Shown: positions 11,385 to 31,540, counted from the stretch's first letter. The stretch is 32,000 nucleotides of DNA from Candidatus Kuenenia stuttgartensis (GCF_900232105.1 NZ_LT934425.1:2280001-2312000); one strand, 5' to 3'. The notes: generated by a model not told the origin, from the letters alone. Made by a program: numbers and translations.

Positions 11385-11430
11385 TTAGATATCTCAAGTG
11401 AGGAACGAGCCGCAACCACTGGAATCAAAA

Positions 11431-12886: not shown

Positions 12887-13072
12887 GTAACACTTTAGTC
12901 TTTTGAAAATTGATACACATATTTTAGCTTAATATGGGTGGCACGGACAAGCAGTGCTTGTCCGTGGTCGTGTGCAAATGGGGCTACGTCTAATTTCCAC
13001 ACGGACAAACGGAGTTTGTCCGTGCCACCCAAAACTAAACTGCAACATATTTTCAAAAAGCTAAATTGTTAC
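12887..13072. mobile_element. MITE family 3, complete 186-bp copy with 8-bp target-site duplication
   Basis: Ends are gtaacactttagtcttttgaaaat / attttcaaaaagctaaattgttac. It is flanked by direct gaatgttt at 12879-12886 and 13073-13080. The core is a long palindrome gggtggcacggacaagc..gcttgtccgtg ... cacggacaaac..gtttgtccgtgccaccc. Confidence 0.8.
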
Positions 13073-14683: not shown

Positions 14684-14686
14684 TTA

Positions 14687-17753: not shown

Positions 17754-17776
17754 GGGAAATATGCTATAGTAGCCGC

Positions 17777-18280: not shown

Positions 18281-18485
18281 CGCAGCAAAAAGTCGCAACC
18301 AAAAATGTAGAGACGCACGGCCGTGCGTCTCTACTAATCAATGCCTTACTGTTGCTTCGACAAGCTCCGCACGAGTATGCATTTTGAAAAACGAGCATTA
18401 AAAACAAGAAGTTGATGGATAGTAGTACAAAGAAAAACTTACAAAAAAAGAGGTTTTTACAGGGCAATATTATAAACCCATTTAC

Positions 18486-18557
18486 TGGCAAAATGGAGTA
18501 GTGTATTTCTCTATACCTACCGTAGTCATTGGCTCGTGGGCGAGAAAGACAAGGGGC
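18486..18557. repeat. Duplicate of the 3' end of the MBL-fold hydrolase gene (att-like direct repeat, left copy)
   Basis: ggcaaaatggagtagtgtatttctctatacctaccgtagtcattggctcgtgggcgagaaagacaagggg differs from 30976-31047 at 4 positions by my count. On the minus strand it reads LVFLAHEPMTTVGIEKYTTPFCQ-stop. Confidence 0.8.
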
Positions 18558-18775
18558 TGCTGGGGTCATTTAGAGAAGCAAGGATGGTTTATATTGATTT
18601 ATGTTGCAGGTATAGGTTGTATCATAAAAGTTTAAGGGAAATTGGTCAGGAGCTGGGAGGTTTAACCGTTGGAGGGATGAGTCAGGTAAGAAAGAGATTA
18701 AAAGAAAAACTGCAGAAAGACGATACCTTAAGGTTCATGTATAACCGGTGCAATAAGGCGCTCTCCGACGAATAG
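18536..18775 (+). pseudogene. C-terminal DnaA-C-like HTH fragment of a transposase-associated protein
   Basis: ARMVYIDLCCRYRLYHKSLREIGQELGGLTVGGMSQVRKRLKEKLQKDD follows the Bac_DnaA_C pattern (..yL.r..t..sl.eIG..fGg..hs.V..a.k.....). As I recall, this domain occurs at the C-terminus of COG1943-type Y1 (REP-associated/IS200-like) transposase relatives. Only ~70 residues are present and no catalytic domain. Confidence 0.45.
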
Positions 18776-18906
18776 TTATTTATACAGGTAAAAGGATTTA
18801 CCTGAATATTAATCAATTTCAACATATCCTTGTAATTAAAACTGTTAAATGTATAATCGTTTCAGGAAAAAATACATTGTTGTCAATAGGTTAGGTTTGA
18901 CCCCAT
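18710..18906. repeat. Direct repeat, copy 1 (tail of HTH fragment plus downstream sequence ending in tttgaccccat)
   Basis: ctgcagaaagacgataccttaaggttcatgtataacc...caataggttaggtttgaccccat recurs at 19904-20090 with few substitutions and small indels. Confidence 0.85.
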
Positions 18907-19195
18907 GCCATACCCATGGGTAAATATTGGTGATAAGGCGGCCGTCTTTGAGGCCACCCACGGTACTGCCCCCAAATATGCGGGAAAAGATATGGTTAAT
19001 CTGGGTTCAGTTATTTTATCAGGGGTAATGATGTTTGAGCATCTGGGCTGGGATGAGGCAGCAAACATGATTGTGAAGGCATTGGGAAAGGCTATTCAAA
19101 AGAAGACAGTTACGTATGACCTTGAACGTCAGATGAAGGGCGCTAAATTAGTCAAGTGTTCCGAGTTTGCCGATGAAATAATTAAGAATATGTGA
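18905..19195 (+). pseudogene. icd: Isocitrate dehydrogenase (NADP) 3'-terminal fragment (icd')
   Basis: [90 protein letters not shown] aligns along its length with the last ~90 residues of bacterial Icd (E. coli ...[37 protein letters not shown]...[29 protein letters not shown]). The first ~320 residues are absent. Confidence 0.85.
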
Positions 19196-19241
19196 GGTAA
19201 TTCTTCAGCCACAAACCTGAAATAAAGAAGGAGGGAACAAA

Positions 19242-19439
19242 ATGTCGGTCAAAGAAATGATAAAGAAAGAGATTGATAAACTTCCGGAAAATCTTCTTCC
19301 AGAGGTCTTTGATTTCATTCAGTTTTTAGAAAGCAAAAGAGAAAGAATCGTGATTGCAAGAGCCTCTCAGGACTTGTCCACTGCATCATTTCAAAAAATA
19401 TGGGACAATGAAGAGGATGCAGTTTATGACAGTCTATAA
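19242..19439 (+). CDS. DUF2281-like antitoxin
   Basis: 65 aa. The KEIDKLPENLLPEVFDFIQFLESK pattern is typical of DUF2281 antitoxins. It overlaps the downstream PemK/MazF gene by 14 nt. A good SD (aaggaggg) lies upstream. Confidence 0.65.
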   Translation: MSVKEMIKKEIDKLPENLLPEVFDFIQFLESKRERIVIARASQDLSTASFQKIWDNEEDAVYDSL

Positions 19440-19767
19440 TAGAGGAGATGTCGTTCTTGTCCCTTTTCCATTCAGCAACCAAACTATCATAAAGAAACGT
19501 CCGGCGGTAATTATTAGTTCTGATGTTTATAACAATACATCCTCTGACATTGTTATTATGGCAATTACGGGAAAAACAGGCAATCTTACCATAGGAGAAT
19601 GTTTAATAGAAGATTGGCAGAGTGCTGGTTTGTTAAAGCCTTCTTCTATCAAACCAGCCATATCAACTATTGAACAAAGCTTAGTTTTAAAGAAACTTGG
19701 CAAACTTTCGCCTAAAGACCTCATTTTAATGGAAAATGTACTAAAAGAATTTTTAGATTTGATATAA
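19426..19767 (+). CDS. PemK/MazF-family type II toxin (endoribonuclease)
   Basis: From Met at 19426: MTVYNRGDVVLVPFPFSNQTIIKKRPAVIISSDVYNNTSSDIVIMAITG. This is the RGD(I/V)(V/W)..F.....KKRPA.V(I/V)S....IV..ITS/G signature of the PemK/MazF fold. The ORF-track start at 19354 is probably too long. Confidence 0.8.
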   Translation: MTVYNRGDVVLVPFPFSNQTIIKKRPAVIISSDVYNNTSSDIVIMAITGKTGNLTIGECLIEDWQSAGLLKPSSIKPAISTIEQSLVLKKLGKLSPKDLILMENVLKEFLDLI

Positions 19768-19903
19768 AGAAGATTTGCTTATTGACTTAGCTCACCCCTG
19801 GTTTTTACAATTACTTATTAACTTAGTTTGTCCAACACATAGGAAGGGGTCAAATCTTTACCATTGACAAATATGTAATTGATAAAGATTTGACCCCATC
19901 CCT

Positions 19904-20090
19904 CTGCAGAAAGACGATACCTTAAGGTTCATGTATAACCAGTGCAGTAATGCGCTCTCCGACGAATAGTTATTTATACAGGTAAAAGGATTTACCTGAA
20001 TATTAATCAATTTCAACATATCCTTATAATTAAAACTGTAATCATTTTAGGGAAAAAACATTCTTGTCAATAGGTTAGGTTTGACCCCAT
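19904..20090. repeat. Direct repeat, copy 2
   Basis: It matches 18710-18906. Together the two copies bracket the icd'-antitoxin-toxin module. Confidence 0.85.
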
Positions 20091-20108
20091 TGACTCCCCT
20101 TGCCAATA

Positions 20109-20133
20109 GGTTAGGTTAGGTTAGGTTAGGTTT
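20109..20133. repeat. Pentanucleotide microsatellite (ggtta)x5
   Basis: aataggttaggttaggttaggttaggtttgacccc. The homologous sites at 18888 and 20072 carry only two units (aataggttaggtttgacccc). Confidence 0.9.
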
Positions 20134-20180
20134 GACCCCATTGACTTTGACTACACCCTAACTAAAAAAGGATTGATTCC

Positions 20181-21941
20181 ATGAAACAGCTTACCAAATT
20201 GTCAAATATTGATCAGTTCTTACCCAGATGGACGAAAAGAGTTATCGCAGAAACGGGTGGGCGAGACCCTCTTGGTTTATCAAGGGTTTCGGACATGATT
20301 GTCGAATTCCTTTTAACAGGTATTACTACTCAAACGAATAGAGCAAGATACTATTCATTTTACTGCTGGAATATCTGGAATATCTGGCATATTCATCTAA
20401 CGGAAAAGCCTCAGAAGTATAAAGATTTTGTTGACAGTTTTCGTAGAAGAGAGGCAGTACTTGCCATGTCCACATATGCCAACAATAGTAATACCTCACC
20501 TGTTGGCATTAAAGCCGCCCGTCCAATATTGGAGAAAGGATTCCAGAGAGGTGAGATGGACAGTAATTTTCGTGTTCTACCTTCGAATGCGCTGGGTGGC
20601 TATGGTCAGTATTACGGAGGAAGCCTGTATCAGCTTGGGTTGACGCGTCGCATTGAAAATGGAATTGACCATTTGAATAAAGGAATGGGAGAAGCATTGG
20701 CAGAAGCATTTCATTTATCTATTCATGAGACTCCTTACATCCAAAAGGAACTTTTTCGAAAAACAAAAATTCCACTTGTTGACTTTGATGGGTCTAAAAA
20801 ATTGCTGACTCTCGATGCCATCATGAAAAAATCTGGAGTCATAGAACGGAAACTTCTCATAGATCTGTTTTTCGGCTTCAATGGCACTACCATTTGTGAA
20901 AGCACCTTACTCAGAAGACACACCTTGGGTCAAATACTCCACATTCTGTGTGAATATGAAAGACATGATTTATATCTAAACCTAGATAGCATCGATGTCA
21001 TTTTTGTCTATGCGCCTTCTTACTTCGATGTCATTTGGTCTGAGGAGGATGATAAAACTATTCCATATAAATGTCCTGAAAAGTTTAGACGTTGTCACTC
21101 TCTTTGGAGGCAATTCTGTCTCCAACAATATTTTACAAATGCATTAGAAAACATACTATTTGCTGTTTTGGAAATAATAGGTAATGAATCAGCGGGTCTA
21201 ACTATAGAAAATATTGTTTTACGATTGATGGAGACCACATTTCTCAAAGTTTTACGAGAGAAAGCAGGAAAGGATTGCTATAGACCAAGAGAAATCCTTA
21301 AAGCTTTTAACATCGAAGACATTCCGACTCATGAAGCATCATACGATTTGCAACAATTGCTTATTCCAACTGCTAAAAATAGCGAATTTGATATCCTGAG
21401 GATATCTGAGGAAGACACAGGAAGTGTTACGGCTAAGGCAATGCTACTTTTAGCAGTTCTTTATGGAAAGTGGAGAGGAATTCAGGATGAAGAAGGCATG
21501 TGTTATGTACATGAACATGCTGGTAACGGCCTTTGGTTTTGGACGTTTATGCCAATCATTGATAAATGGCTGGACAAGAATACAAAGTGGGATGAAACAC
21601 TAGAAAGAATTATAAGATGTTTCATTGTTGATCAACATGATAGAATTATGTACGAGAAAAAGAGATTGGAAAGTTGCTGGTTCAGAACTGATGGAAATCG
21701 ACTATTTAAAGAACAGGAATACTCACCTAAATTTCGTGCTAATCGACATCTTCAAGCAGTTAATATTATGCGTGACTTATGTCTTATAGAATCTGACGAT
21801 GAAGGATACCTTTCGATTACCTCGAAAGGCAAAACAATTCTGAACAAAATACTGAACGAACATGAATGTGTAATAAGAAAGACAATCGATTCAATTTGCA
21901 TGAGATACTTGATAGTAGCTCCTATGATCATGCGCTCATAG
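20181..21941 (+). CDS. Cassette ORF1: 586-aa protein of unknown function with winged-helix-like C-terminus
   Basis: An AAGGA lies 8 nt upstream of the ATG. I found no nucleotide-binding or catalytic motif. The N-terminal block AETGGRDPLGLSRVSDMIVEFLLTGITTQTNRARYYSFYCW looks conserved but I cannot place it. The C-terminal IMRDLCLIESDDEGYLSITSKGKTIL has the usual wHTH wing pattern (gLie..d..y.lT.kG). Confidence 0.6.
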   Translation: MKQLTKLSNIDQFLPRWTKRVIAETGGRDPLGLSRVSDMIVEFLLTGITTQTNRARYYSFYCWNIWNIWHIHLTEKPQKYKDFVDSFRRREAVLAMSTYANNSNTSPVGIKAARPILEKGFQRGEMDSNFRVLPSNALGGYGQYYGGSLYQLGLTRRIENGIDHLNKGMGEALAEAFHLSIHETPYIQKELFRKTKIPLVDFDGSKKLLTLDAIMKKSGVIERKLLIDLFFGFNGTTICESTLLRRHTLGQILHILCEYERHDLYLNLDSIDVIFVYAPSYFDVIWSEEDDKTIPYKCPEKFRRCHSLWRQFCLQQYFTNALENILFAVLEIIGNESAGLTIENIVLRLMETTFLKVLREKAGKDCYRPREILKAFNIEDIPTHEASYDLQQLLIPTAKNSEFDILRISEEDTGSVTAKAMLLLAVLYGKWRGIQDEEGMCYVHEHAGNGLWFWTFMPIIDKWLDKNTKWDETLERIIRCFIVDQHDRIMYEKKRLESCWFRTDGNRLFKEQEYSPKFRANRHLQAVNIMRDLCLIESDDEGYLSITSKGKTILNKILNEHECVIRKTIDSICMRYLIVAPMIMRS

Positions 21942-23329
21942 CTACGTATACTTTTGACCCAGAGTTCTTTGAGGAGTACTGTCTTGAAAAACTTAAAAGT
22001 CTAAGTGGAAATGGTAATATTTCTGTTCTCGTAGATAGGGGTGAATACGAAAAAGTCATAAAAGGAACAGACTCATCAATGCCACAAAAGGCAAATCTTC
22101 GTTATCTCTTACATCCAGTTTACGTTCTAGGTGCATTTCATTCAAAAATATTTCTTTTTGTAAATCAAGACCATGGCTTGCTTGTAATCGGAAGTGCAAA
22201 TTTTACCCGTCCAGGCCTTGCATCAAATGCAGAGTTGGTGTCATGCTACGAATATGAAGTTGAGGAAAAGGAACAATTTAAGTATTTGTTTATGTCTGCA
22301 TTTCACTATTTCAGACAAATAAGTAACTATTCTCTAAGTCAAACACTCGAATCCAATATTCGGGTAGTAGAACGGGAAATTGCCTGGTTAACTGAAGGGT
22401 ATAACAATGAAATAAACGAATCAAATCCAGTACTACTACATAACATTGATACCCCACTATGGGAACAGCTAAAGGCGAAAATTGAACAACCCGTTGATTC
22501 TATTTCTGTGCTTTCCAGATATTTCGACCCAACACCTACCCTTCTTGATAGAGTGGATCGAGATTTTAAACCGAAAAAAATTAAAATCTTTACTCAAAAC
22601 GGAATCACCACATTGACCTCACAATGGTTGAAACATCCGCTAGTGAGGAAGAGTAAAGTTGAGATATATCTATGTACATATAAAGATGAAGAACATAGCC
22701 AACCCCTTCATGCAAAAGCTATTGCTATCGAGAAAGATAAAAATATCGTATTTGCTTTTGGTAGTGCCAATTTTACTACACCAGCGATGTTGCGTACCAT
22801 GAACGATGGTAATGCTGAGGTAATCTTGTGTTTCCATGGCTTAAGTAAATCGAGTATAAGCCCAGAAAGGTTTTTTGATCCAGACAATACTGCCATTCTG
22901 CTTAATCATGAAAAACAATTGAATTTTACGCAGGAGGAGGACAAAAAATCTCCATCCAATAGATATGATATATTACTTAAAGAAGCCTTGCTTGAGGGTG
23001 AACGGTTGTGCCTGATCGCTGATATTTCTGAAAAATTTAGACAATACCCTCTCATTGCTGAAATCAGTTCTCCAAACAAACCTACGCAACAAGTTAAGTT
23101 GCAGCAGTTAGATGAAGGATACTACGACGCAGACCTTTCAGATGAAATGCTGAAGAATTTTGGTGATCAATCATCCGTTGTTCAAATAAAAGCTTTGATG
23201 AACGATGAATTGATTGCACTAAGCAATCCTCTTCTATTAACCCAATCTACAAGATATTCAAACCGGTGGAAGTGTGCGTCGCGAGCGACAAATAAAGGAA
23301 GCAATGCAAAGCACAGACAAGTTCCATGA
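21866..23329 (+). CDS. Cassette ORF2: PLD-family phosphodiesterase/nuclease with two HxK...GSxN motifs
   Basis: Motif 1 is GAFHSKIFLFVNQDHGLLVIGSANFTRPGL. Motif 2 is PLHAKAIAIEKDKNIVFAFGSANFTTPAM. The N-terminal HALIATYTFDPEFFEEY is typical of the PLD-like nuclease fold. Its last ~30 codons (after 23240) appear to be out-of-frame read-through (see findings). The start overlaps ORF1 by 76 nt, or 46 nt if TTG at 21896 is used. Confidence 0.8.
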   Translation: MCNKKDNRFNLHEILDSSSYDHALIATYTFDPEFFEEYCLEKLKSLSGNGNISVLVDRGEYEKVIKGTDSSMPQKANLRYLLHPVYVLGAFHSKIFLFVNQDHGLLVIGSANFTRPGLASNAELVSCYEYEVEEKEQFKYLFMSAFHYFRQISNYSLSQTLESNIRVVEREIAWLTEGYNNEINESNPVLLHNIDTPLWEQLKAKIEQPVDSISVLSRYFDPTPTLLDRVDRDFKPKKIKIFTQNGITTLTSQWLKHPLVRKSKVEIYLCTYKDEEHSQPLHAKAIAIEKDKNIVFAFGSANFTTPAMLRTMNDGNAEVILCFHGLSKSSISPERFFDPDNTAILLNHEKQLNFTQEEDKKSPSNRYDILLKEALLEGERLCLIADISEKFRQYPLIAEISSPNKPTQQVKLQQLDEGYYDADLSDEMLKNFGDQSSVVQIKALMNDELIALSNPLLLTQSTRYSNRWKCASRATNKGSNAKHRQVP

Positions 23330-24911
23330 AGCGCTCAAGGAGATGAACCACTCTGGTGATTTAGATCGCCAGATACAGTTCCTGATCTATTGTGATATTC
23401 CAGTAATTGAAGCAGAACAACCATTTGCACGTAGGGCAAGACCACCTTTGGATCGGAACAAGGAAATGCGAAACATTGGAGAACGGAATCTCAAACACTT
23501 TGTAGACCTTCACGAAGCAACCATTGACTTCATAAATAGGCATTTTGGAAAGCTCAAAAAACATATAAAAAATGGAACTATAAAAGGCATACCAAACTTT
23601 ATGCATATCTTTCTTGCCATTTGTTGGATTCTTGAGAACCAGATTGAAAGGGTAATTCAGGGGTTTAAGTCAAAATTAACACCGATGACTTCAAAAGAGT
23701 GGTATGACTACCGTGAACAACTTGATGAATATTTTAAATACTTCAAGGAAGTTATGGATTGTCTTTGGGGTGATTATCTAACGACCATGCTTAAACATCA
23801 CACCCGCCGGGAAATCAGGGAAAAACTCGATCCTGATTTCCACTATTTGAAGGATGTCTGTTCGCAGATGTTGGGATTTAGGTCAAGAATTGAGGTCTTG
23901 CGAAAATCTCAATTAAAGGTCCAACGTGAAAGTGGCAGGGCTTTAGTCCTTCCAGAGTATTTTGAATCCATTCTCAAAGAGGAAAAATGGCACATTTATT
24001 GTGAACATATAAACTCGTCCATTGTTCAAATCAGAGCTTTAGTTGAAAATAACTCGATTGTACCTAAAAATCAGGTTCTATCAACCAATTTTCAAGAGAT
24101 TAAAACTGGTAGAAGTATAGGATGTGAATATCAAATAAAGGAGGCGCAGCAAAGTACATTGCAGTGCATAGAAGCAATCAAAGAATTATACAACTCCAGC
24201 AATTCCAAGGCACTGAAACAGTTCCTGACTTTCTGTGATATTCCAGTAATCAAAAATATACAACCAATATTAGCATACAGCCCAAGACCTTCTTCTGGGT
24301 TGAGCAAGGAAACATGGAGACTTGGAGAATGGAATCTTAGACACTTCATAAATCATCACAAAGCGACACTTCACTTTATAGACAAACATTTTAGAAAGTT
24401 AGAGATACATATTAAAGATATACCTAAAGAGAACATACCAAACTTTATGCATATCTTCCTTGCCATTGGTTGGATTTTGAGGAACCAAATCGAAATGGCA
24501 ATTCACTGCCTTAAGACAAAAATAACTCCCATGTCTTTAGAAGAATGGCAAGAATACCTTAAACAACTGGATATATATTTTAAAAAGTTTAGACTACTCA
24601 TGGATTGTCTTTGGTATAAATATCTTTCTATCATGTTAAAATATTATGCACATGAGACAATACGGGAAAGGTTCGAACCAGATTTCCAATTTCTAAAAGA
24701 CATTTGTTCGCATATGCTTGGATTTCGACCAAGAATTGATATTCTATGTAAGTCTCATTTAAAAATTCAGAGATCAGACGGAACAATAATACTTCCTGAA
24801 TATTTCTCTTCTGTTTTCAATGAAAAGGATTGGAAATACTACTCCAATAATATAAAAAAGATTCATCGCGCTATTTTTAAACACTTTTTCAAAAAGAAAC
24901 ACAAATTATGA
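23274..24911 (+). CDS. Cassette ORF3: tandem-duplicated ~282-residue helical domain protein, unknown function (probably the C-terminal part of ORF2)
   Basis: The two halves align residue for residue (QIKEAMQST../QIKEAQQST.., IPNFMHIFLAICWILENQIE/IPNFMHIFLAIGWILRNQIE, MDCLWGDYL/MDCLWYKYL, LGFRSRIEVL/LGFRPRIDIL, LPEYFES/LPEYFSS). The listed start is a GTG. The frame is open from 23241, and homology to repeat 2 begins upstream of that GTG. Confidence 0.7.
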   Translation: MRRERQIKEAMQSTDKFHEALKEMNHSGDLDRQIQFLIYCDIPVIEAEQPFARRARPPLDRNKEMRNIGERNLKHFVDLHEATIDFINRHFGKLKKHIKNGTIKGIPNFMHIFLAICWILENQIERVIQGFKSKLTPMTSKEWYDYREQLDEYFKYFKEVMDCLWGDYLTTMLKHHTRREIREKLDPDFHYLKDVCSQMLGFRSRIEVLRKSQLKVQRESGRALVLPEYFESILKEEKWHIYCEHINSSIVQIRALVENNSIVPKNQVLSTNFQEIKTGRSIGCEYQIKEAQQSTLQCIEAIKELYNSSNSKALKQFLTFCDIPVIKNIQPILAYSPRPSSGLSKETWRLGEWNLRHFINHHKATLHFIDKHFRKLEIHIKDIPKENIPNFMHIFLAIGWILRNQIEMAIHCLKTKITPMSLEEWQEYLKQLDIYFKKFRLLMDCLWYKYLSIMLKYYAHETIRERFEPDFQFLKDICSHMLGFRPRIDILCKSHLKIQRSDGTIILPEYFSSVFNEKDWKYYSNNIKKIHRAIFKHFFKKKHKL

Positions 24912-26095
24912 AAAGAGAAAAAAGGAAAGAAAAACTTAAGCACAAAAAAGACTTGGCTGCTAATAAAAAGTGGGAACAATTTGACAGAGTATTTGAAAGC
25001 ATAAGCATAAAAAAAGATTTTTCAAAGTTGCAAAGGAGCTTGAAGGAAAAAGTAATATCACGACGTTATCCATCTTTTCGTATAGAGTTATCTGATGAAT
25101 TAAAAAATGATTCCGAATCGATTTTGGTTGCGAAGGAAGTAGATGACTGTATTAAGCAATTAACTTTTGTACTAAAGCCCTTTAACACAACCATTAAAAT
25201 AAATGATTATTTCTCAGTTGCGGTTTCCGTTGCCCATTGTTTTAAAAATTGCGAAGAACTCTCATCCTTAGAAAATATAAAAACTGCTACGAGTTTGTTG
25301 TTGTCAGAGGAAAACATAGCTGCAGTAATAAAATGTTTGTATCAAAATATAGATGCAGTACTCATAGAACATAATAAAATGGACAGATTTTTTTTTTGGG
25401 CGTCTATAGAATGTAACACTTTACCAAACGGAAAGCCTATCAGGTTGATTCGAATACATAGACAACAGTGTATGTCTAAAAGTTTTTTTGTTGATGGACA
25501 GCAAAGAATTGCATATAAATGCGGTCAGTGTTTTATGCCTTATGGAATAAAATGGGCTGGCTTGGACAACAAAAATGTTGGGTTAACTGGCTTAGAAAAG
25601 AACATTCCTGTATACATTCAATCTCATGCGTTGGAAAGGTTATACGAAAGAATAGATTGTTTTGAAAACTCAAAAAGTCTTATTTACGATTATTTGTGGT
25701 GTTCCATCTTAAATGCAAAAGTTGTTAAAAGTACTAATGGAAAATATCTTATCGAATATTGGTTTAATTGTCACAAACTGGGTTATTTGGTAACAACGAT
25801 AAACGATGGAGTTGCTATAGTAAGAACATTTCTCTTTATCACAATGGATGGAACACCAGAAGGACTGTTATTGCACAAAAAACTCGGTATCAGAAGAGAT
25901 GATAAAGAATACTTACATCTCGACAAACTAAGAACCTACCTTATGACTGATATTCAAGAAGACACTGAATTACGTAATGTTTTTGAAGAATGTGGGTGTG
26001 GGCATTTATTTAAGGTTGTTAAGGAAGATGCGGTAATATGCCGAACGACTGGAGATGCTAAAGACATTCGTAAATACTTAAATCTAGGTAGTTGA
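24908..26095 (+). CDS. Cassette ORF4: 395-aa protein of unknown function, Lys-rich N-terminus
   Basis: The ATGA start/stop overlap with ORF3 indicates translational coupling. The N-terminus is MKREKRKEKLKHKKDLAANKK. The central/C-terminal segment PVYIQSHALERLYERID...NGKYLIEYWFNCHKLGYLVTTINDGVAIVRTFLFIT has an HAxxRxxxR-plus-beta-strand pattern reminiscent of DUF4258/BECR-fold toxins. That link is a weak inference. Confidence 0.6.
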   Translation: MKREKRKEKLKHKKDLAANKKWEQFDRVFESISIKKDFSKLQRSLKEKVISRRYPSFRIELSDELKNDSESILVAKEVDDCIKQLTFVLKPFNTTIKINDYFSVAVSVAHCFKNCEELSSLENIKTATSLLLSEENIAAVIKCLYQNIDAVLIEHNKMDRFFFWASIECNTLPNGKPIRLIRIHRQQCMSKSFFVDGQQRIAYKCGQCFMPYGIKWAGLDNKNVGLTGLEKNIPVYIQSHALERLYERIDCFENSKSLIYDYLWCSILNAKVVKSTNGKYLIEYWFNCHKLGYLVTTINDGVAIVRTFLFITMDGTPEGLLLHKKLGIRRDDKEYLHLDKLRTYLMTDIQEDTELRNVFEECGCGHLFKVVKEDAVICRTTGDAKDIRKYLNLGS

Positions 26096-26097
26096 AA

Positions 26098-26280
26098 ATG
26101 AAAAATCAAAAAAGCAACAAAAGATACAATGCGATACTGTTTGATATAGTTGGTACTTTGCTAACAAGACAGTCCGCAGATTTTCAAGTGTTCGCGGGGC
26201 GTTGTCAGGAAACCGGAATCACAATAGATTTAGATACTGCACGGAGAGGCTGGAAACAATCTGAGAGGTGGATTTTCTGA
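26098..26280 (+). pseudogene. HAD-superfamily hydrolase N-terminal fragment
   Basis: MKNQKSNKRYNAILFDIVGTLL resembles HAD motif I (hhhFDxDGTL), but the second Asp is replaced by Val. The ORF stops after 60 codons, whereas HAD enzymes are ~200+ aa. Downstream sequence to ~26450 has only short broken frames. Confidence 0.4.
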
Positions 26281-26517
26281 AGGAAATGGCTGGCGAACCC
26301 AGGATGCCTGACCACGAATTTTTCAGATGACCTGATTCCATTGCCTTGCGAACGGCGTTTGGCGAGAAGTCAGATGAAGAGATATGGAAAATGGTTTCTC
26401 TTATTCTCCCGCTTCAAGGCCCAAGACAGTCATGAGAAGTAATCGCTGGAAAATTTCACAAATCGCCCTAATTATTAAGTTGCGTTTAATGATGGTAGAG
26501 GATTAACATTTCGATTC

Positions 26518-26939
26518 GGGTGCATTCCCGATTTTTTGTAACTATCTGCACAATGTAACACAAGTATCCTGCATGTGATATTTAATACACAAGCTGCCTG
26601 CCTATACGTCCCGGCACGCAGACAGGCGACTCGCCCAGACCGGGACGGTCTGGCTACCTTCGGAAACGTACGCAGACAGGGAAGCATCGTAGAGACAGGT
26701 TTCAAACCTGTCTCTACAATGACCTATATTTTTATGCCCCACTAATTGTTTATAGCCAATAGTATCTATTTTTCTAAAATTTAATATATACTCCAGGTAT
26801 CAATAGATGGGTGGCACAGGCTTTTTGCCTGTGCGGAATACAGGCAGGATGCCTGTACCACCCTTGCAATAAATTCTATTATTCATCTTCCGAAAACCTT
26901 ATTTTTTGACTATATTTACAAAAAATCGGGAATGCACCC
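26518..26939. mobile_element. MITE family 1, complete 422-bp copy with 9-bp target-site duplication
   Basis: Ends are gggtgcattcccgattttttgtaa / ttacaaaaaatcgggaatgcaccc. It is flanked by direct tttcgattc at 26509-26517 and 26940-26948. The interior carries the GTAG hairpin gtagagacaggtttcaaacctgtctctac (26689-26717) and a gggtggcacagg..cctgtaccaccc palindrome. Confidence 0.85.
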
Positions 26940-27042
26940 TTTCGATTCTCATGAGAGATGTATACTAAAGCAGAACGATTCAATCCCGATAATTTATATG
27001 ATCTAATTAATTGGAAAGATAGATAACTAACATTTTTGCGTT

Positions 27043-28545
27043 ATGAATAAATCACCCTTCATCTCCAAAACAAAATACATCGCCGGTATTCAGTGCCATA
27101 AACTCCTCTGGCATTACTACAACGCAAAGGAAGAGTTCCAGGAAGTAGATGCCGGCACGCAATCGCTATTCGACCAAGGACATTTAGTCGGTGAATACGC
27201 AAAAAAACGCTATCCAACCGGAATAGAAGTGTCTGAAGATATCATCGCTTTTGAAAAGGTCATTGAGCAATCTAAACAGTTAATCTCAAAACGCCTACCG
27301 CTTTTTGAAGCCGCATTTCGTTATAAAAACGCTTACGCCCGCGCAGATATTCTAAATCCGGCAGGAAGAAAAGCCTGGGAAATTATAGAAGTGAAAAGTT
27401 CAACCCAGGTGAAAGATATTCATCTTTACGACCTTTCTTTGCAGTGGTATACATATAAAGGAACCGGACTTGAGATCAAACGATGTTATCTTCTGCATAT
27501 TAATAATGAATATGTCCGCAAAGGAGAAATCGATCCGGGAAAGTTATTTGCCCTTGAAGATATTACATCGGATGTGAAAATATTACTTCCAGAAGTTGAA
27601 GGACGATTGGAAAAAATGATCAAAGTAATTGCAGCAAAAAAATATCCCAAAATTGAAATCGGTTTACATTGTAACGACCCTTACGAATGTCCGCTGCAAG
27701 AAAAATGCTTTGATTATTTGCCAAGACACAATCCGCTGACGTTATATTACTTCAAAGGAGAGAAAGCCTTTTCATTGATAAATGATGGCGTCACCGATAT
27801 TCTAAAGTTCGATGATTCCATCACACTATCCGCTAAACAAAAGATACAGATACAGAGTCTTCGGTCAAAAAGAGAGTATGTAAATAAAGAGGGAATACAG
27901 TCATTCTTAAATAAACTTGCTTATCCTTTATATTATCTTGATTTTGAGACTATCGGAACTGCAATCCCGCTGTTTGACCATGTAAAACCGTATCAACAGA
28001 TTCCATTTCAGTTCTCGCTTCATATTCAAGCATCACCAAAGAGTAAACTTGAGCACATCGGTTATTTAGCAGAAGGCAAAGACGACCCCCGTCCGGAATT
28101 ATTAAAGCTATTGAAAAAACACCTTGGCATGAAAGGATCGATTGTTACATACAACGCATCCTTTGAAAAAGACAAACTCAACAAAGCGTGCGAAGCATTT
28201 CCGGCTTACCGGGAGTGGAATCGGAAGATACAAGCCCGAATAGTTGATCTGTTGGATCCTTTCAAAGCCTTCTACTACTATAACTACAAACAAGAGGGAA
28301 GCGCATCGATCAAATCTGTCTTACCTGTACTAACGGGAAAAGGATATGATGGGATGGAGATCGCCGATGGTGGAACGGCGAGCAATGAATATCTGCGAGT
28401 GACGTATGGAGAAGGTGTTACCGAAAAAGAGCGAAAGACAGTTCGGAAATATCTTGAAGAGTATTGTGAGTTGGATACGATGGCGATGGTGAAAATTGTT
28501 GAAAAGTTGATAAAGATTTCCAATGGCAAAGTAGATTATTCGTAA
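27043..28545 (+). CDS. DUF2779-like protein: N-terminal PD-(D/E)XK (RecB/Cas4-like) nuclease domain plus C-terminal DFET-containing domain
   Basis: 500 aa. ISKTKYIAGIQCHKLLWHYY matches the usual DUF2779 opening (SKS.f..g.qC.k.LW). ARADIL...WEIIEVKSST supplies D...ExK. The C-terminal half has YYLDFETIGTAIPLF...PFQFSLH. Confidence 0.65.
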   Translation: MNKSPFISKTKYIAGIQCHKLLWHYYNAKEEFQEVDAGTQSLFDQGHLVGEYAKKRYPTGIEVSEDIIAFEKVIEQSKQLISKRLPLFEAAFRYKNAYARADILNPAGRKAWEIIEVKSSTQVKDIHLYDLSLQWYTYKGTGLEIKRCYLLHINNEYVRKGEIDPGKLFALEDITSDVKILLPEVEGRLEKMIKVIAAKKYPKIEIGLHCNDPYECPLQEKCFDYLPRHNPLTLYYFKGEKAFSLINDGVTDILKFDDSITLSAKQKIQIQSLRSKREYVNKEGIQSFLNKLAYPLYYLDFETIGTAIPLFDHVKPYQQIPFQFSLHIQASPKSKLEHIGYLAEGKDDPRPELLKLLKKHLGMKGSIVTYNASFEKDKLNKACEAFPAYREWNRKIQARIVDLLDPFKAFYYYNYKQEGSASIKSVLPVLTGKGYDGMEIADGGTASNEYLRVTYGEGVTEKERKTVRKYLEEYCELDTMAMVKIVEKLIKISNGKVDYS

Positions 28546-28627
28546 TACATTCTCTCCTGAAAAAATAACCTATCATGTTGAAACAGGTACGCAGATTCCG
28601 GGAACACAAGAATATGGTAAGTCTTCA

Positions 28628-28806
28628 CCCATAAGGTGTGGGTAAAATCCGTTAGACAGTAGGGTGGATCAAGCGACAGCGAATCAACCGTTTCATTTAT
28701 TATTGGTGGATTTGCTGTGAAAAAGCCCACCCTACACGAAATGAGAGAAAAGAGTCTTGGCGAGCATGGTATATTAACCCTGTCAGGGTTGTTTCTTTCA
28801 TTTTGT
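28628..28806. repeat. Composite palindromic repeat, family 2, copy B
   Basis: It is collinear with 2296-2512: cccataaggtg..gtagggtggatcaagcgacagcgaatcaacc..cccaccctac..ggtatattaaccctgtcagggttgttt. It lies directly upstream of paralog B. Confidence 0.8.
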
Positions 28807-28829
28807 GGGAAATATGCCATAGTAGCTGC

Positions 28830-29324
28830 ATGAACGAAGAACATTCACCTATGAAATTGCTTATGCAAAGATTGCAGCATAATGAAAGCGAAGTGGTGCG
28901 TCAAGCCCTTGAAGAAATTGGCAGATCCGGAAAGGGGAATCGCGAGGCCATAAAAATGCTTCAGGATTTTTTAAAGGGAGAGCGGCGAATGCCTCTCCGC
29001 GTTTTGGCGGTTCAAACTATTGCAAAAATAAAGGAGTCCCCTCAATCTTCCGCAAAAGAATTCAAGAAACCGAACGTCTTTCAGTGTCCGGGGGCGGAGA
29101 AGATAAAAAGGGTGGAAATTTTGGAGGTAACGTGTCCCTACTGCCATCAGAAAGGTACGGCGTCGGTGGCCGGTTTTGAATATGAATTCGAATGCGAGAG
29201 CTGCGGGGGAATGATACAGCGTGATATCCCTGAAAGCTGTATTGAGAAATGTCCCGTGGGAAGCGAGTGTGTCGGTGAAGGGCGTTATCAAAAATATTTA
29301 CAAGGCAGAAAGAAAGCTACTTGA
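28830..29324 (+). CDS. HEAT-repeat-like + zinc-ribbon-like protein, paralog B
   Basis: I count 8 substitutions over ~164 aligned residues against the 17777..18280 product. Nucleotide similarity runs from ~28806 to ~29350. Confidence 0.6.
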   Translation: MNEEHSPMKLLMQRLQHNESEVVRQALEEIGRSGKGNREAIKMLQDFLKGERRMPLRVLAVQTIAKIKESPQSSAKEFKKPNVFQCPGAEKIKRVEILEVTCPYCHQKGTASVAGFEYEFECESCGGMIQRDIPESCIEKCPVGSECVGEGRYQKYLQGRKKAT

Positions 29325-29915
29325 AATACATAGCGCAGCCTTTGGCCGCAACCAAATTCGAAATACGAATATCGAATCTATTAAAATAAGGAATTTAGAA
29401 ACCGCAAATACACGCAAATGGACGCAAATATTTTTAACGGGAGTCACAGAAATCTGGCAATCTAGTCTCTGACCACTGCCTACTGCTTCTGGCGACCGGC
29501 TTTCGCGTTCATTGGCGTCCATTAGCGGTTATCTTTCTAAACAACCTCCAGGGAATTTCGAATTACGGGGAAAATAGGAATAATAAGAGAAGTGTCCCTA
29601 TATCCTATTTCCCCCCCTATATCCCTTGCTCATGGATCGAGGATGCTTCCCCTCAGGTGGCACGGCCAACTTGAGCAGAATACAACGTGATCGCGCGATA
29701 TAGCAGACGAGTCCGGCACAGGGGTTGTAGCCTTGTCGTTGATCGCAGTTGTTATGCGATTAAGACGTTGAATTAATATTTACTGAATGGCATATAGTAG
29801 ATTTGCAGGAAATTTTAAAATTGGCTAGACAAGGTATAAAATAAAGGCGAAATAGCGCTTGCCAATGATCCTAAAATAATATATATTCATAGTATATATT
29901 CAAAGGAGGTGTTTT

Positions 29916-30143
29916 GTGAAAACTGCAAAAATTTTTCAAAACGGTCAAAGCCAGGCTGTTAGGCTGCCCAAGGAGTTTCGGTTTGAGGGTGACCACGTAT
30001 TTATCAAAAAGTCGGGAAATATTGTGATGCTTATTCCAGCCAAAGAATCGTGGAATTCTTTGGTAGACAGCCTTGATAAATTTACCGATGACTTCATGGG
30101 TGAGAGAAAACAGTTAGATACCCAGACAAGGGAGCCACTTTAA
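29916..30143 (+). CDS. vapB: VapB antitoxin (AbrB/SpoVT-type)
   Basis: GTG start preceded by aaggagg. KTAKIFQNGQSQAVRLPKEFRFEGDHVFIKK is the classic AbrB-fold VapB/VagC N-terminus. The stop overlaps the vapC start (TAATG). Confidence 0.85.
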   Translation: MKTAKIFQNGQSQAVRLPKEFRFEGDHVFIKKSGNIVMLIPAKESWNSLVDSLDKFTDDFMGERKQLDTQTREPL

Positions 30144-30544
30144 TGAAATGTATGCTTGATACCAATATATGCATTTATCTCATCAAGCGGAAAAACCCTA
30201 AAATCCTTGCGTATCTCAAAAAACACGACATAGGGGAGGTTGGTATTTCATCTATTACCCTCGCGGAACTTCAATACGGGGTGGCAAACAGCAATTATAT
30301 CCAGAGAAACAGAGAGGCTTTACATGAGTTTATCCTGCCTCTTGAAATTGCAGATTTCGATGAAAAGGTTGCTGAGGTGTACGGGAATGTGAGGGCGAAC
30401 CTTGAAAAGGCAGGAACCCCTATTGGCTCAATGGATATGCTCATTGGCGCTCATGCCATGAGTCTCGGTGTAACCCTTGTATCTAATAATACCAGGGAAT
30501 TTAATCGTATAAAAGGGCTTAAGGTTGTAGACTGGACCATTTGA
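30143..30544 (+). CDS. vapC: VapC PIN-domain toxin
   Basis: 133 aa. MLDTNICIYLIKRKNP ... ISSITLAELQYG ... MDMLIGAHA ... LVSNNTREFNRIKGLKVVDW is collinear with enterobacterial VapC/MvpT, including the acidic PIN residues. Confidence 0.9.
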   Translation: MKCMLDTNICIYLIKRKNPKILAYLKKHDIGEVGISSITLAELQYGVANSNYIQRNREALHEFILPLEIADFDEKVAEVYGNVRANLEKAGTPIGSMDMLIGAHAMSLGVTLVSNNTREFNRIKGLKVVDWTI

Positions 30545-30952
30545 AGGTAGGGAATCAGGCCTACGGTGACATTCAACAGCGTAGTGGTAAGACGTGCCTT
30601 GCTACTGTTTGAACACGCACCAGAGGTGGTAACCCTAAAGCGTAAAAAGGGGCATACCTTGATCAGGGGTTAACATGTCGATAGTTTGGGCTTGATCACA
30701 AATCAAGGTGTGAACCGTATCTTCACTCCTAACTCCGCACTTTAGTGCGGAGATATTCGTAAAAAACCCGACTTTAGCCAGGACTTTGGATTATTCCGTA
30801 ACCCCGACAGAGTTCCAAACTCTGTCAGGGTTAAATCAACTATTCCCCGCGCATTTGACCGCCATGGATTAACAGTACTTCAGGGCTAAAGCCCCGGACA
30901 TTTTTATTTTGTCAACCCCATGCTAAAGCATGGGGTTAAAGCATGGATGGAT

Positions 30953-30975
30953 TTTTCAAAAAACTAAAGTGTTAC
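30953..30975. repeat. Solo right end of MITE family 3 abutting / forming the MBL gene 3' terminus
   Basis: ttttcaaaaaactaaagtgttac has the same spelling as the right end at 13049-13072. Similarity between the two MBL 3'-end copies stops exactly at this junction. Confidence 0.6.
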
Positions 30976-31540
30976 GGCAAAATGGATTTGTGTATTTCTC
31001 TATACCTACCGTAGTCATTGGCCCGTGGGCGGGAAAGACAAGGGTTTCGTCAGGCAGGGTGAAGATATGCTTGCGGATATGTTCTGTCTGGCATTGAGCG
31101 GCCTTTGAAGAATTCGTACCACCAACTGAACCGCAAAAAAGCGCATCTCCTGTAAACACACCACCGGGGATATAGTACGACATTCCATGAAGAGTATGGC
31201 CAGGCGTGGATAATGCTTTGAATTGCAGCGAACCAACCTCAATTATTTCGCTGCCCTGCAGCATGTTATTGGCAGAATGTACTTCTCCCTCTCCGGCATA
31301 ACTCTTAACAGGATAACGGCGGGAAAACTCCTGCATGCCTTCGGTATGGTCCCAATGTCCATGCGTAAAAAAGAGATATTGTAAGAGGATTTGCCGTTCC
31401 CGGATAAAAGCCTCTATTTCATCGCTGAAACCCCCGGGATCAATAAATACCCCTACCCTGGTTTCAGGGTCTGCAACAAGATACCCGTTAATCGGGTAAC
31501 TTCCCACGGTAAAACGCCTGAATATCAGATTGCAAATCAT
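30956..31540 (-). CDS. MBL-fold metallo-hydrolase (glyoxalase II-like)
   Basis: 194 aa. The HxHxDH motif appears as THGHWDH. Later His/Asp ligand regions are TPGHTLHG and GDALF. The end is PAHGPMTTVGIEKYTNPF. The last 6 codons plus the stop are encoded by the MITE-end-like sequence. Confidence 0.85.
   Translation of the reverse strand: MICNLIFRRFTVGSYPINGYLVADPETRVGVFIDPGGFSDEIEAFIRERQILLQYLFFTHGHWDHTEGMQEFSRRYPVKSYAGEGEVHSANNMLQGSEIIEVGSLQFKALSTPGHTLHGMSYYIPGGVFTGDALFCGSVGGTNSSKAAQCQTEHIRKHIFTLPDETLVFPAHGPMTTVGIEKYTNPFCRNTLVF
30976..31047. repeat. att-like direct repeat, right copy (inside the MBL gene 3' end)
   Basis: It matches 18486-18557 (see that feature). Confidence 0.8.

What the first reader, a model, noticed from the sequence alone, without database searches (positions are those of the whole stretch)
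18486..31047. 72-nt direct repeats derived from the 3' end of the MBL-hydrolase gene bracket a 12.4-kb accessory segment
18486-18557 and 30976-31047 are direct repeats with 4 mismatches by my count. The right copy is part of the intact minus-strand gene (...LVFPAHGPMTTVGIEKYTNPFC...). The left copy encodes an alternative complete 3' end (LVFLAHEPMTTVGIEKYTTPFCQ-stop). A duplicated gene 3' end at both borders is the established footprint of site-specific integration into the 3' end of a gene. Everything between the copies is accessory: a transposase-related fragment, icd', two TA pairs, the PLD cassette, the DUF2779 nuclease and MITEs. No integrase is present, so the island is either a decayed remnant or mobilised in trans.
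Basis: partly seen in the sequence, partly recalled or inferred. Interest (0 to 1): 0.7.

Follow-up and report, generated by a model that had tools for sequence, protein, structure and literature searches.

The report
Duplicated gene segment flanking defence island
The 72-base repeats are real, but they are only the tip of a 0.8-kb duplicated stretch of chromosome flanking an old, species-wide block of defence and toxin-antitoxin genes in the anammox bacterium Kuenenia stuttgartiensis, and the evidence points to ordinary recombination rather than an integrase-driven mobile island.

Summary
Observation confirmed. 18482-18555 and 30972-31044 are direct repeats (74 nt, 93%), are not dispersed, and are the last 72 nt of the MBL-hydrolase gene.

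The site-specific integration reading is not supported.
- The repeat is the right end of a collinear ~0.8-kb duplication: a whole conserved HEAT/zinc-ribbon gene ("H", 17754-18286 = 28807-29339, 95%), a spacer, and the MBL tail.
- In Ca. Kuenenia hertensis, H and MBL lie tail-to-tail 9 nt apart with nothing between them.
- More than 12 K. stuttgartiensis assemblies carry both copies with identical borders.
- The left junction fuses the MBL tail to a 5'-truncated DnaA_C-like HTH gene. This is an illegitimate junction, not an att site.
- No integrase, tRNA or Rfam element is present in this strain or in strains with other cargo.
- The two H copies differ as much as species do (dS 0.17, dN/dS 0.12).

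Most likely an ~11-kb block was joined in once, by recombination anchored in H-MBL homology. It now serves as a defence-cassette slot: PLD cassette here, AAA ATPase or SNF2 helicase in other strains. VapBC is a later allelic replacement that overwrote the MBL stop codon.

This is an ordinary genomic-island history and is of modest interest.

The parts
17485..17753 (.). MITE copy whose terminal inverted repeat ends exactly at the left border of the duplicated segment
   Evidence: 87% to the reverse complement of 26517-26805. The TIR GGGNGCATTCCCGATTTTTTGTAA recurs at 8077-8104, 8272-8299, 26518-26545 and 26912-26939.
17754..18286 (+). H_L: left copy of the duplicated HEAT-repeat/zinc-ribbon gene (CDS 17777-18280, 167 aa)
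   Evidence: 533 nt, 94.9% to 28807-29339. HEAT_2 hit. Identical in all K. stuttgartiensis assemblies. 97% aa identity to the single H gene of Bin_40, which lies next to the same cytochrome cluster.
18287..18485 (.). Left spacer: REP-like palindrome 18307-18334, plus the ancestral sequence downstream of MBL (18436-18485)
   Evidence: 18436-18555 matches Bin_40 L005 10616-10497 at 92.5%. 18389-18555 matches the right-hand spacer of VapBC-less strains at 92.8%.
18486..18557 (-). MBL': displaced last 72 nt of the MBL gene (the left 72-mer), with ancestral ...PFCQ-stop
   Evidence: P->L and G->E in the PAHGP motif are unique to this copy.
18558..18775 (+). 5'-truncated DnaA_C-like HTH gene. Its fusion to MBL' is the illegitimate left junction.
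   Evidence: Homologs P0002, P0004 and P0005 (100-125 aa, PF08299) extend ~45 aa further at the N-terminus. No Pfam hit for the fragment itself.
18710..18906 (+). DR-A1: nested 197-nt direct repeat (3' end of the DnaA_C-like gene, downstream region, and the motif ...TTGTCAATAGGTTAGGTTTGACCCCAT)
   Evidence: 91% to 19904-20090.
18905..19195 (+). icd': C-terminal 96 aa of an isocitrate dehydrogenase
   Evidence: PF00180 profile positions 263-348 of 348, E=7e-24. 84% to the Jettenia icd C-terminus.
19242..19767 (+). DUF2281 antitoxin (19242-19439) and PemK/MazF toxin (19426-19767)
   Evidence: Conserved in all strains.
19842..19901 (.). Inverted repeat built from the GGGGTCAAA/TTTGACCCC motif, immediately before DR-A2
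   Evidence: (I21).
19904..20090 (+). DR-A2: second copy of the nested repeat. Its end is the left border of the strain-variable cassette slot.
   Evidence: Homology with CSTR1 (L068) stops at 20090.
20091..26939 (+). Strain-variable cassette slot. In this strain: 586-aa (ZacA-like), PLD nuclease 21866-23329 (ZacB/DrmC-like), 545-aa, 395-aa, 62-aa, and a MITE at 26517-26939.
   Evidence: Replaced by an AAA-ATPase cassette in CSTR1 (L068) and by a 689-aa protein plus SNF2 helicase in L073 and L077. GC 33-39%.
27043..28545 (+). DUF2779/Cas4-like nuclease, conserved next to H_R in all strains
28605..28806 (.). Repeat element (about 87% to 2272-2509) abutting the left end of the right copy
28807..29339 (+). 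H_R: right copy of the HEAT/zinc-ribbon gene (CDS 28830-29324, 164 aa). This is the more divergent copy.
   Evidence: Site patterns place it outside the group H_L + Bin_40. dN/dS 0.12 against H_L.
29377..30975 (+). VapBC replacement segment (VapB 29916-30143, VapC 30143-30544). It replaces the 300-380-nt spacer of other strains and overwrites the last codon and stop of MBL.
   Evidence: Absent in L053, L061, L068-L074, L076 and L077, which have a 189-aa MBL ending CQ*. The tract extends into MBL to about 31282.
30956..31540 (-). Intact MBL-fold hydrolase gene (194 aa, hybrid allele). The right 72-mer is 30976-31047.
   Evidence: No SNPs in the 5' 263 nt and 11 SNPs in the 3' 262 nt against the L071 allele.

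Best explanation
The 72-nt repeats are the right-hand tip of a duplicated ~0.8-kb piece of chromosome. It consists of a conserved anammox HEAT/zinc-ribbon gene (H), a short spacer and the last 72 nt of the convergent MBL-hydrolase gene.

Ancestral Kuenenia had H and MBL tail-to-tail. In the ancestor of K. stuttgartiensis an ~11-kb block was joined in by a single recombination event. The block ran from the truncated DnaA_C-like gene through icd'-TA, the defence cassette and DUF2779 to a second, more divergent H and its spacer. One side of the event was anchored by homology in the H-spacer-MBL region. The other side was an illegitimate join between nt 72 of the MBL tail and the middle of a DnaA_C-like gene. 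Two equivalent routes are Campbell-type single crossover of a circularised fragment, and homology-facilitated illegitimate recombination of DNA from a divergent Kuenenia lineage in which this block lay upstream of H.

The result leaves the ancestral MBL tail stranded on the left as a decaying fragment. It also leaves two H genes, both kept under purifying selection.

The structure is now fixed and not self-mobile. Its interior behaves as a defence/TA cassette slot, exchanged among strains by homologous recombination between conserved flanks. The VapBC pair arrived later by such an allelic replacement.

Shown: extent and collinearity of the duplication, ancestral adjacency, fixation, the truncated-gene junction, absence of an integrase, cargo and VapBC polymorphism, and gene-conversion mosaics.

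Inferred: the recombination route, the direction of the event and the foreign origin of H_R.
For: - Two collinear repeats share about the same divergence: 533 nt at 94.9% and 74 nt at 93.2%. In VapBC-less strains the spacers also align (167 nt at 92.8%), which gives one continuous unit.
- K. hertensis L006 has MBL 9998-10570 and H 10579-11130 convergent, 9 nt apart. L007 is the same.
- The left copy keeps the ancestral CQ-stop and 50 nt of downstream sequence shared with Bin_40.
- The left junction truncates a DnaA_C-like gene whose homologs extend about 45 aa upstream.
- No integrase, tRNA or Rfam hit was found.
- Every K. stuttgartiensis assembly examined has the same borders (>12, including the complete CSTR1 genome). 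H_L and H_R are each invariant. The icd' fragment's exact protein is also on record on a 4,406,153-nt contig, the size given for the MBR1 genome, so the island is presumably in MBR1 too; its borders there were not examined.
- H_L against H_R gives dS 0.167 and dN/dS 0.12, as large as H_L against Bin_40 (dS 0.142). With outgroups, H_L and Bin_40 share 5-6 derived states, against 1 for H_R and Bin_40.
- Homologous recombination operates at this locus. The L061 right copy is a mosaic of L-type and R-type tracts reaching into an intact MBL. The window MBL is a hybrid allele with a tract boundary near 31282. Cassettes differ between conserved flanks.
- The interior GC of 33-39% against 42-47% in the flanks fits foreign cargo.
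Against: - The topology alone (gene tail duplicated at both borders, displaced tail at the far end) is also what integrase-mediated insertion gives.
- The left limit of the duplication coincides with MITE or repeat ends in both copies (17753 and 28806). The original extent may therefore be obscured.
- No donor genome carrying the block upstream of a single H was found, and no K. stuttgartiensis strain has an empty site. The event is reconstructed, not observed.
- An ancient intragenomic duplication followed by loss in Bin_40 explains the H_R phylogeny equally well.
- The two contigs that would show recombination in action are each open to an assembly-artefact reading. These are the L060/L048 circle or tandem junction and the L096 tandem MBL'.
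Confidence: 0.6

Rival explanations
1. First reader's model. A genomic island integrated by a tyrosine or serine recombinase into an att site in the last 72 nt of the MBL gene and carried a replacement gene tail. The integrase has since been lost or acts in trans.
For: - Direct repeats of the gene tail lie at both borders, and the displaced ancestral tail is at the far end.
- Related species lack the insert.
- The island contains icd', a fragment of a gene that is a classical integration target; e14 is flanked by icd and icdC (PMC13626634).
- In Bin_40 a different defence island follows the MBL tail.
Against: - The duplication continues for 0.8 kb through the spacer and a whole core gene.
- The left border is a fusion to a truncated gene, not an element end.
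- No recombinase was found in any strain variant.
- Borders are identical in all strains.
- If L096 is real, a second MBL-tail duplication has a different length (409 nt) and a different partner. That argues against a fixed att site.
Confidence: 0.12
2. Purely intragenomic history. The block lay upstream of a single H gene. An ~11-kb tandem duplication had endpoints inside the DnaA_C-like gene and 72 nt into MBL. A deletion then removed the cargo from the left copy, leaving H_L-spacer-MBL'.
For: - It gives the same single novel junction MBL'|DnaA_C' and the same collinear repeats.
- The region upstream of H is variable in K. hertensis too, with TA genes between the cytochromes and H.
- Bin_40 carries a DnaA_C-unit motif just after H.
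Against: - It needs two large events.
- The copies differ at the level of separate species (dS 0.167), and H_R branches outside H_L + Bin_40. The duplication would therefore have to predate the Bin_40 split and then be lost there.
- No intermediate was found in more than 12 assemblies.
Confidence: 0.22
3. The repeat is a chance match, a dispersed repeat, or an assembly artefact (false haplotype duplication).
For: The window comes from a multi-strain 'low abundance' assembly, GCA_900232175.1. MITEs and REPs are abundant in the window.
Against: - E=2.7e-24.
- The 32-nt core occurs only at the two expected places in 105 loci.
- The same two-copy structure is present in more than 12 independent assemblies, including the closed CSTR1 genome.
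Confidence: 0.01

Closest known systems
Prophage e14 / phage 21 at the E. coli icd gene (integrase-mediated insertion into a gene's 3' end with a duplicated tail, icd and icdC)
   Same: A gene tail occurs at both borders. The intact gene uses the tail adjacent to the inserted DNA, and the displaced tail is a pseudogene fragment at the far end. Recombination between the two tails can make hybrid alleles (PMC13626634; compare L061 and the hybrid MBL).
   Different: There is no integrase or excisionase. The repeat extends through a neighbouring complete gene (0.8 kb). The far border is a fusion of two truncated genes. The insert is fixed in the species and shows no sign of excision.
Campbell-type (single-crossover) integration of circular DNA, and homology-facilitated illegitimate recombination during uptake of foreign DNA (own knowledge; the term is used in PMC8116780 and PMC3410848)
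   Same: The insert is flanked by direct repeats equal to the shared homologous segment. One junction is seamless and the other is an illegitimate join with little or no microhomology. The incoming copy of the homologous segment is diverged.
   Different: This is not demonstrated experimentally here. Neither the donor nor competence or transfer routes in anammox bacteria are known. The left limit of the homology is masked by MITEs.
Defence islands and cassette hot spots between conserved core genes (own knowledge)
   Same: Cargo has PLD nuclease/ZacB-DrmC-like, Cas4-like DUF2779, GmrSD-type and TA genes. Different cassettes (PLD, AAA ATPase, SNF2 helicase) occupy the same slot in different strains.
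   Different: The slot sits inside a duplicated core-gene segment. Its left border is a conserved 24-nt motif associated with DnaA_C-like HTH genes.

Membership tests
Integrase-mediated integrative island in a gene 3' end | Direct repeats derived from the target gene's 3' end at both borders | tested here: met
   74 nt at 93%.
Integrase-mediated integrative island in a gene 3' end | The repeat is limited to the att core or gene tail carried by the element | tested here: not met
   The duplication continues through the spacer and the whole H gene, about 0.8 kb.
Integrase-mediated integrative island in a gene 3' end | Integrase or recombinase gene within or next to the island | tested here: not met
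   Pfam, NCBIfam and PADLOC scans of all substantial ORFs of the window and of the alternative cargo in CSTR1 and L073 found none.
Integrase-mediated integrative island in a gene 3' end | Empty site in relatives, and presence/absence polymorphism | tested here: inconclusive
   Other species (K. hertensis, L007) have MBL directly next to H. All of the more than 12 K. stuttgartiensis assemblies carry the insert with identical borders.
Integrase-mediated integrative island in a gene 3' end | Excised circle or restored junction with the crossover in the att site | not testable with these tools
   No read data were available. The only circle-like contig (L060/L048) has its crossover at the start of H, not in the 72-mer. 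It may be an assembly switch inside a 205-nt identical stretch.
Recombination-generated segmental duplication (Campbell-type or homology-anchored insertion) | Collinear duplication of a contiguous chromosomal segment flanking the insert | tested here: met
   H, spacer and MBL tail are in the same order and orientation in both copies.
Recombination-generated segmental duplication (Campbell-type or homology-anchored insertion) | One novel illegitimate junction joining the end of the segment to unrelated DNA | tested here: met
   MBL' at nt 72 is fused to a 5'-truncated DnaA_C-like gene at 18556 +/- 10.
Recombination-generated segmental duplication (Campbell-type or homology-anchored insertion) | Uniform divergence along the whole unit (one event) | tested here: met
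   94.9% for H, 92.8% for the spacer, 93.2% for the MBL tail.
Recombination-generated segmental duplication (Campbell-type or homology-anchored insertion) | Identified donor, or an intermediate | tested here: inconclusive
   No donor was found. L096 shows an analogous tandem intermediate for VapBC, but it contains a garbled 70-nt stretch.
Composite transposon or MITE-bounded element | Matching IS or MITE copies bracketing the segment, with target-site duplication | tested here: not met
   MITE copies at 17485-17753 and 26517-26939 are inverted and do not bracket the segment. The IS at 14649-16706 lies outside it and is strain-specific.
Defence island or cassette hot spot | Defence-type cargo that differs between strains while the flanks stay conserved | tested here: met
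   PLD/ZacB-like E=3e-19 and ZacA-like E=2e-5. An AAA-ATPase or SNF2 cassette sits in the same slot in other strains.

The most novel reading that the evidence does not exclude
Small DnaA_C-like HTH genes, together with a conserved ~24-nt motif (TTGTCAATAGNTTAGGTTTGACCCC), may mark the junctions of modules in anammox accessory regions. The motif is found singly and as an inverted pair. In the window it ends exactly where icd'-TA begins (18906), where the second repeat begins (19899) and where strain-specific cassettes begin (20090, at a shared ATG). It also flanks DnaA_C-like genes in two other genomes and follows H in Bin_40. The units could therefore be the recognition sites of an undescribed, integron-like cassette-recombination or cassette-regulation system. 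On that reading the nested 'duplicated 3' end' structures, including the MBL one, would be its products.
Probability: 0.08. Interest if true: 0.6.

Novelty: new member of a known kind. Interest (0 to 1): 0.25.

Why it matters
The case shows that a 'duplicated gene tail at both borders' is not by itself a footprint of integrase-mediated integration. Here, extending the comparison by a few hundred bases and looking at sister species turns an apparent att site into the tip of a segmental duplication. For anammox genomics it does three things. It defines a conserved locus (cytochrome cluster, H, MBL) where K. stuttgartiensis strains carry different defence cassettes. It documents a second, selectively maintained copy of a conserved anammox-specific gene. 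It gives concrete examples of homologous-recombination-driven cassette exchange in an organism that cannot be grown in pure culture or manipulated genetically. It does not reveal a new mobile element.

Tried and rejected
- Searched for an integrase or recombinase with Pfam, NCBIfam and PADLOC on all substantial ORFs, on small ORFs in the gaps and on alternative cargo. None was found.
- tRNA/tmRNA and Rfam scans of the window were empty.
- The metagenome scan with the H protein gave only 5 loci and no empty-site variant.
- Looked for an empty site among K. stuttgartiensis strains using exact-protein look-ups of MBL, H_L, H_R, p586, icd', PemK and VapC. All strains carry the insert.
- Tested whether the 79-aa ORF is a transposase fragment. 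Only DnaA_C-like HTH homologs of 100-125 aa were found, and their neighbours gave no transposase domain.
- Tested whether icd'-TA was copied from Kuenenia's own icd locus. The top hits are mostly partial genes at contig ends, and the Jettenia hit is simply its real icd. This was uninformative.
- Considered L060/L048 as proof of an excised circle. Downgraded, because a 205-nt stretch identical between the copies in that population could let an assembler switch paths.
- Considered L096 as a caught-in-the-act intermediate. Kept only as suggestive, because the second MBL copy holds a garbled G/C-rich 70-nt stretch.
- Frank et al. 2018 (PMC5854607) predicts 27 genomic islands in strain MBR1 but gives no coordinates usable here.

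Full report
**Source.** The window is from Candidatus Kuenenia stuttgartiensis. It is 100% identical to GCA_900232175.1 contig OCTL01000112.1 (L050). The left half carries multihaem cytochrome genes.

**Observation.**
- The two 72-mers are real. 18482-18555 against 30972-31044 is 93.2% over 74 nt, E=2.7e-24.
- The right copy is the end of the intact 194-aa MBL-fold gene 30956-31540 (-). The left copy reads ...LVFLAHEPMTTVGIEKYTTPFCQ*.
- A 32-nt core of the repeat occurs at most twice per locus, always at these two places, in 105 loci totalling 1.3 Mb. It is not a dispersed repeat.

- A longer collinear repeat lies 200 nt to the left of each 72-mer: 17754-18286 against 28807-29339, 533 nt at 94.9%. 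It contains a complete gene (17777-18280 and 28830-29324) for a HEAT-repeat/zinc-ribbon protein, here called H.
- H is conserved in single copy across Kuenenia, Brocadia, Jettenia and Scalindua.
- In the window the two repeats are separated by 195 nt on the left and by 1,632 nt, including VapBC, on the right.
- In most other K. stuttgartiensis strains (L053, L068-L074, L076, L077) there is no VapBC. H_R is followed by a 300-380-nt spacer whose right 167 nt align with the left spacer at 92.8%, and then by a 189-aa MBL ending ...CQ*.
- The duplicated unit is therefore one continuous segment of H, spacer and the last 72 nt of MBL. It is about 0.8 kb long and uniformly 5-7% diverged. The material truly between the copies is 18558-28806 (10.25 kb).

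**Ancestral state.**
- In Ca. K. hertensis (L006) MBL (9998-10570) and H (10579-11130) are convergent and 9 nt apart. The same cytochrome cluster as window 8611-12731 lies about 4 kb beyond H. MAG L007 has the same MBL-H adjacency.
- In Kuenenia sp. Bin_40 a single H (97% aa identity to H_L) directly follows the cytochrome cluster. MBL lies 175 kb away on the same strand of the same contig, so an inversion breakpoint falls between H and MBL. A different defence island (PLD-SNF2 helicase, type IIG methyltransferase fragments) follows MBL.
- Bin_40's MBL ends ...CQ*, and its next 50 nt match window 18436-18485. The left copy therefore retains the ancestral gene end and flank.
- In the window's intact gene, homology breaks inside the last codon, giving ...CRNTLVF*.

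**Borders.**
- The left border (18556 +/- 10) fuses the MBL tail to an ORF whose homologs are 100-125-aa DnaA_C-like HTH proteins (PF08299). These extend about 45 residues further at the N-terminus, so both partners of the junction are truncated genes. No transposase domain was found in these homologs or their neighbours.
- The left limit of the duplication (17754 and 28807) abuts a MITE terminus in the left copy and another repeat element in the right copy. The original extent may therefore be masked.
- No integrase or recombinase was found in any ORF of the window, in small ORFs in the gaps or in alternative cargo of other strains. There is no tRNA/tmRNA and no Rfam family.

**Population data.**
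- Every K. stuttgartiensis assembly with enough sequence carries cytochromes, Reeler, CarboxypepD_reg gene, MITE, H_L, MBL', DnaA_C', icd', DUF2281/PemK, cassette, DUF2779, H_R and MBL. This covers more than 12 assemblies, including the closed CSTR1 genome. H_L is 533/533 identical in all of them, and H_R is identical in all of them. The icd' fragment's exact protein is also on record on a 4,406,153-nt contig, the size reported for the MBR1 genome, but the borders in that genome were not examined.
- There is no empty-site polymorphism within the species.
- Polymorphism is found elsewhere. An IS (14649-16706) interrupts the CarboxypepD_reg gene only in some strains. VapBC is present or absent. 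The cargo between 20090 and 26940/27023 differs: the PLD cassette here, an 814-aa AAA ATPase cassette in CSTR1, and a 689-aa protein plus SNF2 helicase in L073 and L077.

**Age and origin of the copies.**
- H_L and H_R differ at 27 sites. Between them dS = 0.167 and dN/dS = 0.12. This is as large as H_L against Bin_40 (dS 0.142).
- Polarised with K. hertensis and L007, H_L and Bin_40 share 5-6 derived states, against 1 shared by H_R and Bin_40.
- H_R is therefore either an old paralog or, more simply, a copy that arrived with the block from a more divergent Kuenenia lineage.
- Both copies evolved under purifying selection. In contrast, the stranded MBL tail has P->L and G->E changes in the PAHGP motif that no intact allele shows.

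**Recombination at the locus.**
- In L061 (JAANMT) the right copy is a mosaic of L-type and R-type tracts. It has the complete left-type spacer and two left-type SNPs inside an intact MBL. This is gene conversion between the copies.
- The window's MBL is itself a hybrid. Against the L071 allele it has no differences in the first 263 nt and 11 in the next 262 nt. VapBC therefore came in as a tract of at least 1.9 kb (29377 to about 31282) that replaced the spacer and the gene end.
- L096 shows H_R-c-VapBC-MBL'(409 nt)|c-spacer-MBL, with a 57-nt direct repeat and an illegitimate junction. This would be a Campbell-type intermediate with a different MBL-tail length. However, its second MBL has a garbled 70-nt stretch, so I treat it only as suggestive.
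- L060/L048 joins DUF2779 to H, MBL' and DnaA_C', as expected for a circle or tandem made by H_L x H_R recombination. An assembler switch inside a 205-nt identical stretch is equally possible.

**Interpretation.**
- The pattern is a contiguous chromosomal segment duplicated on both sides of the insert, with one seamless and one illegitimate junction, uniform divergence, no recombinase and fixation in the species. It fits a one-off homology-anchored insertion, either Campbell-type or homology-facilitated illegitimate recombination (own knowledge; term as in PMC8116780).
- It fits much less well the integrase model exemplified by e14 at icd/icdC (PMC13626634). An internal tandem duplication followed by deletion remains a viable variant.
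- The block today is a defence/TA cassette slot. The cargo includes ZacA/ZacB-like proteins, a DrmC-like PLD nuclease and a Cas4-like DUF2779 protein. Interior GC is 33-39%.

**Side observation.**
- A nested 197-nt repeat (18710-18906 and 19904-20090, 91%) brackets icd' and the DUF2281/PemK pair in the same topology.
- Its end carries the motif TTGTCAATAGGTTAGGTTTGACCCC. The motif marks the start of icd' and of the strain-specific cassettes, at a shared ATG.
- It also flanks DnaA_C-like genes in L066 and L067, and a one-base-shorter copy follows H in Bin_40.
- This may be only a shared promoter or leader. The possibility that it is a recombination site is the most novel reading left open.

**Verdict.** The feature is an ordinary recombination-built, fixed genomic island of modest interest.

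Noticed in passing
window 18710-18906 and 19904-20090: A nested 197-nt direct repeat (91%) brackets icd' plus the DUF2281/PemK pair. It is made of the 3' end of the DnaA_C-like gene and its downstream region. The topology is the same as the H/MBL duplication, on a smaller scale. Many short-read assemblies break exactly here, giving ~1.08-kb icd'-TA contigs (L081-L083).
   Followed up: partly
window 18882-18906, 19842-19901 (inverted pair), 20066-20090, 20117-20141; L065 10643-10685; L066 3885-4361; L067 548-562 and 1093-1107: The conserved motif TTGTCAATAGNTTAGGTTTGACCCC sits at module junctions and flanks small DnaA_C-like HTH genes in unrelated contigs. In the window and in CSTR1 it is followed by ATGCCAT, which starts two different downstream ORFs (icd' and a 114-aa ORF).
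   Followed up: partly
window 20091-26939/27022; L068 973-4191; L073 1-4110: This is a strain-variable cassette slot. It holds a ZacA/ZacB-like PLD cassette in the window, an 814-aa AAA ATPase cassette in strain CSTR1, and a 689-aa protein plus a 966-aa SNF2/ResIII helicase in L073 and L077. The flanks icd'-TA and DUF2779-H_R are conserved.
   Followed up: partly
L096 4814-6124 (GCA_027493735.1 JAOSKF010000003.1): One MAG has a partial MBL (409 nt, window-type) after VapBC, then a repeated 57 nt (window 29320-29376), then the spacer and a second complete MBL. The second copy has a garbled G/C-rich 70-nt stretch. This is either a real Campbell-type intermediate or an assembly artefact.
   Followed up: partly
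L048 = L060 (JAANMY010024617.1), 1-2418; L061 (JAANMT010015504.1): L060 is a contig joining the DUF2779 3' end to a hybrid H, then the left spacer, MBL' and DnaA_C'-icd'-TA. This is a circle or tandem junction, or an assembly switch. The sister sample contig L061 has a right copy converted almost entirely to left type.
   Followed up: partly
window 30956-31540: The window's MBL gene is a hybrid allele. It is identical to VapBC-less strains over the 5' 263 nt and 4% different over the 3' 262 nt. It has a 5-aa C-terminal extension (RNTLVF in place of Q) created by the VapBC segment.
   Followed up: yes
window 14649-16706; L002 1-1073: An IS with a DDE_Tnp_1 transposase (627 aa) interrupts a CarboxypepD_reg-domain gene. 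That gene is 426 aa and intact in L043, L044 and L084. A second copy of the same IS interrupts the HD-domain gene just beyond the right end of the window in the same assembly.
   Followed up: partly
L005 and L065 (Kuenenia sp. Bin_40, contig JBDIWA010000002.1): H and MBL are 175 kb apart on the same strand, so a large inversion has a breakpoint exactly between the two genes. A different defence island (1073-aa PLD-helicase, AlbA_2-like protein, type IIG methyltransferase fragments) follows the MBL tail.
   Followed up: partly
right spacer in L053, L068-L077 (between H_R and MBL): The spacer length varies, with the MBL motif 327-383 nt after H_R. The variation comes from different numbers of GAGTTAAA and CTCCTAAA tandem units forming a long hairpin-like element.
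   Followed up: no
window 23171-23893 vs 24015-24739: The 545-aa protein of the PLD cassette is an internal tandem duplication: two ~240-aa halves, 72% identical at the DNA level.
   Followed up: no
window 17548-17575, 18307-18334, 11356-11384, 26689-26717; 12935-13031, 17372-17410, 8520-8544: At least two families of short REP-like palindromes are scattered through intergenic regions: GTAGAGAC...GTCTCTAC and GGGTGGCACGGACAAAC...GTTTGTCCGTGCCACCC. They occur at or near several rearrangement borders.
   Followed up: no
window 4550-8480: A segment with a GmrSD-type restriction gene (4686-6473) and a Fic gene (7150-7941) is absent from strain L043 but present in Bin_40 (L065). This is another strain-variable defence patch in the same window.
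   Followed up: no
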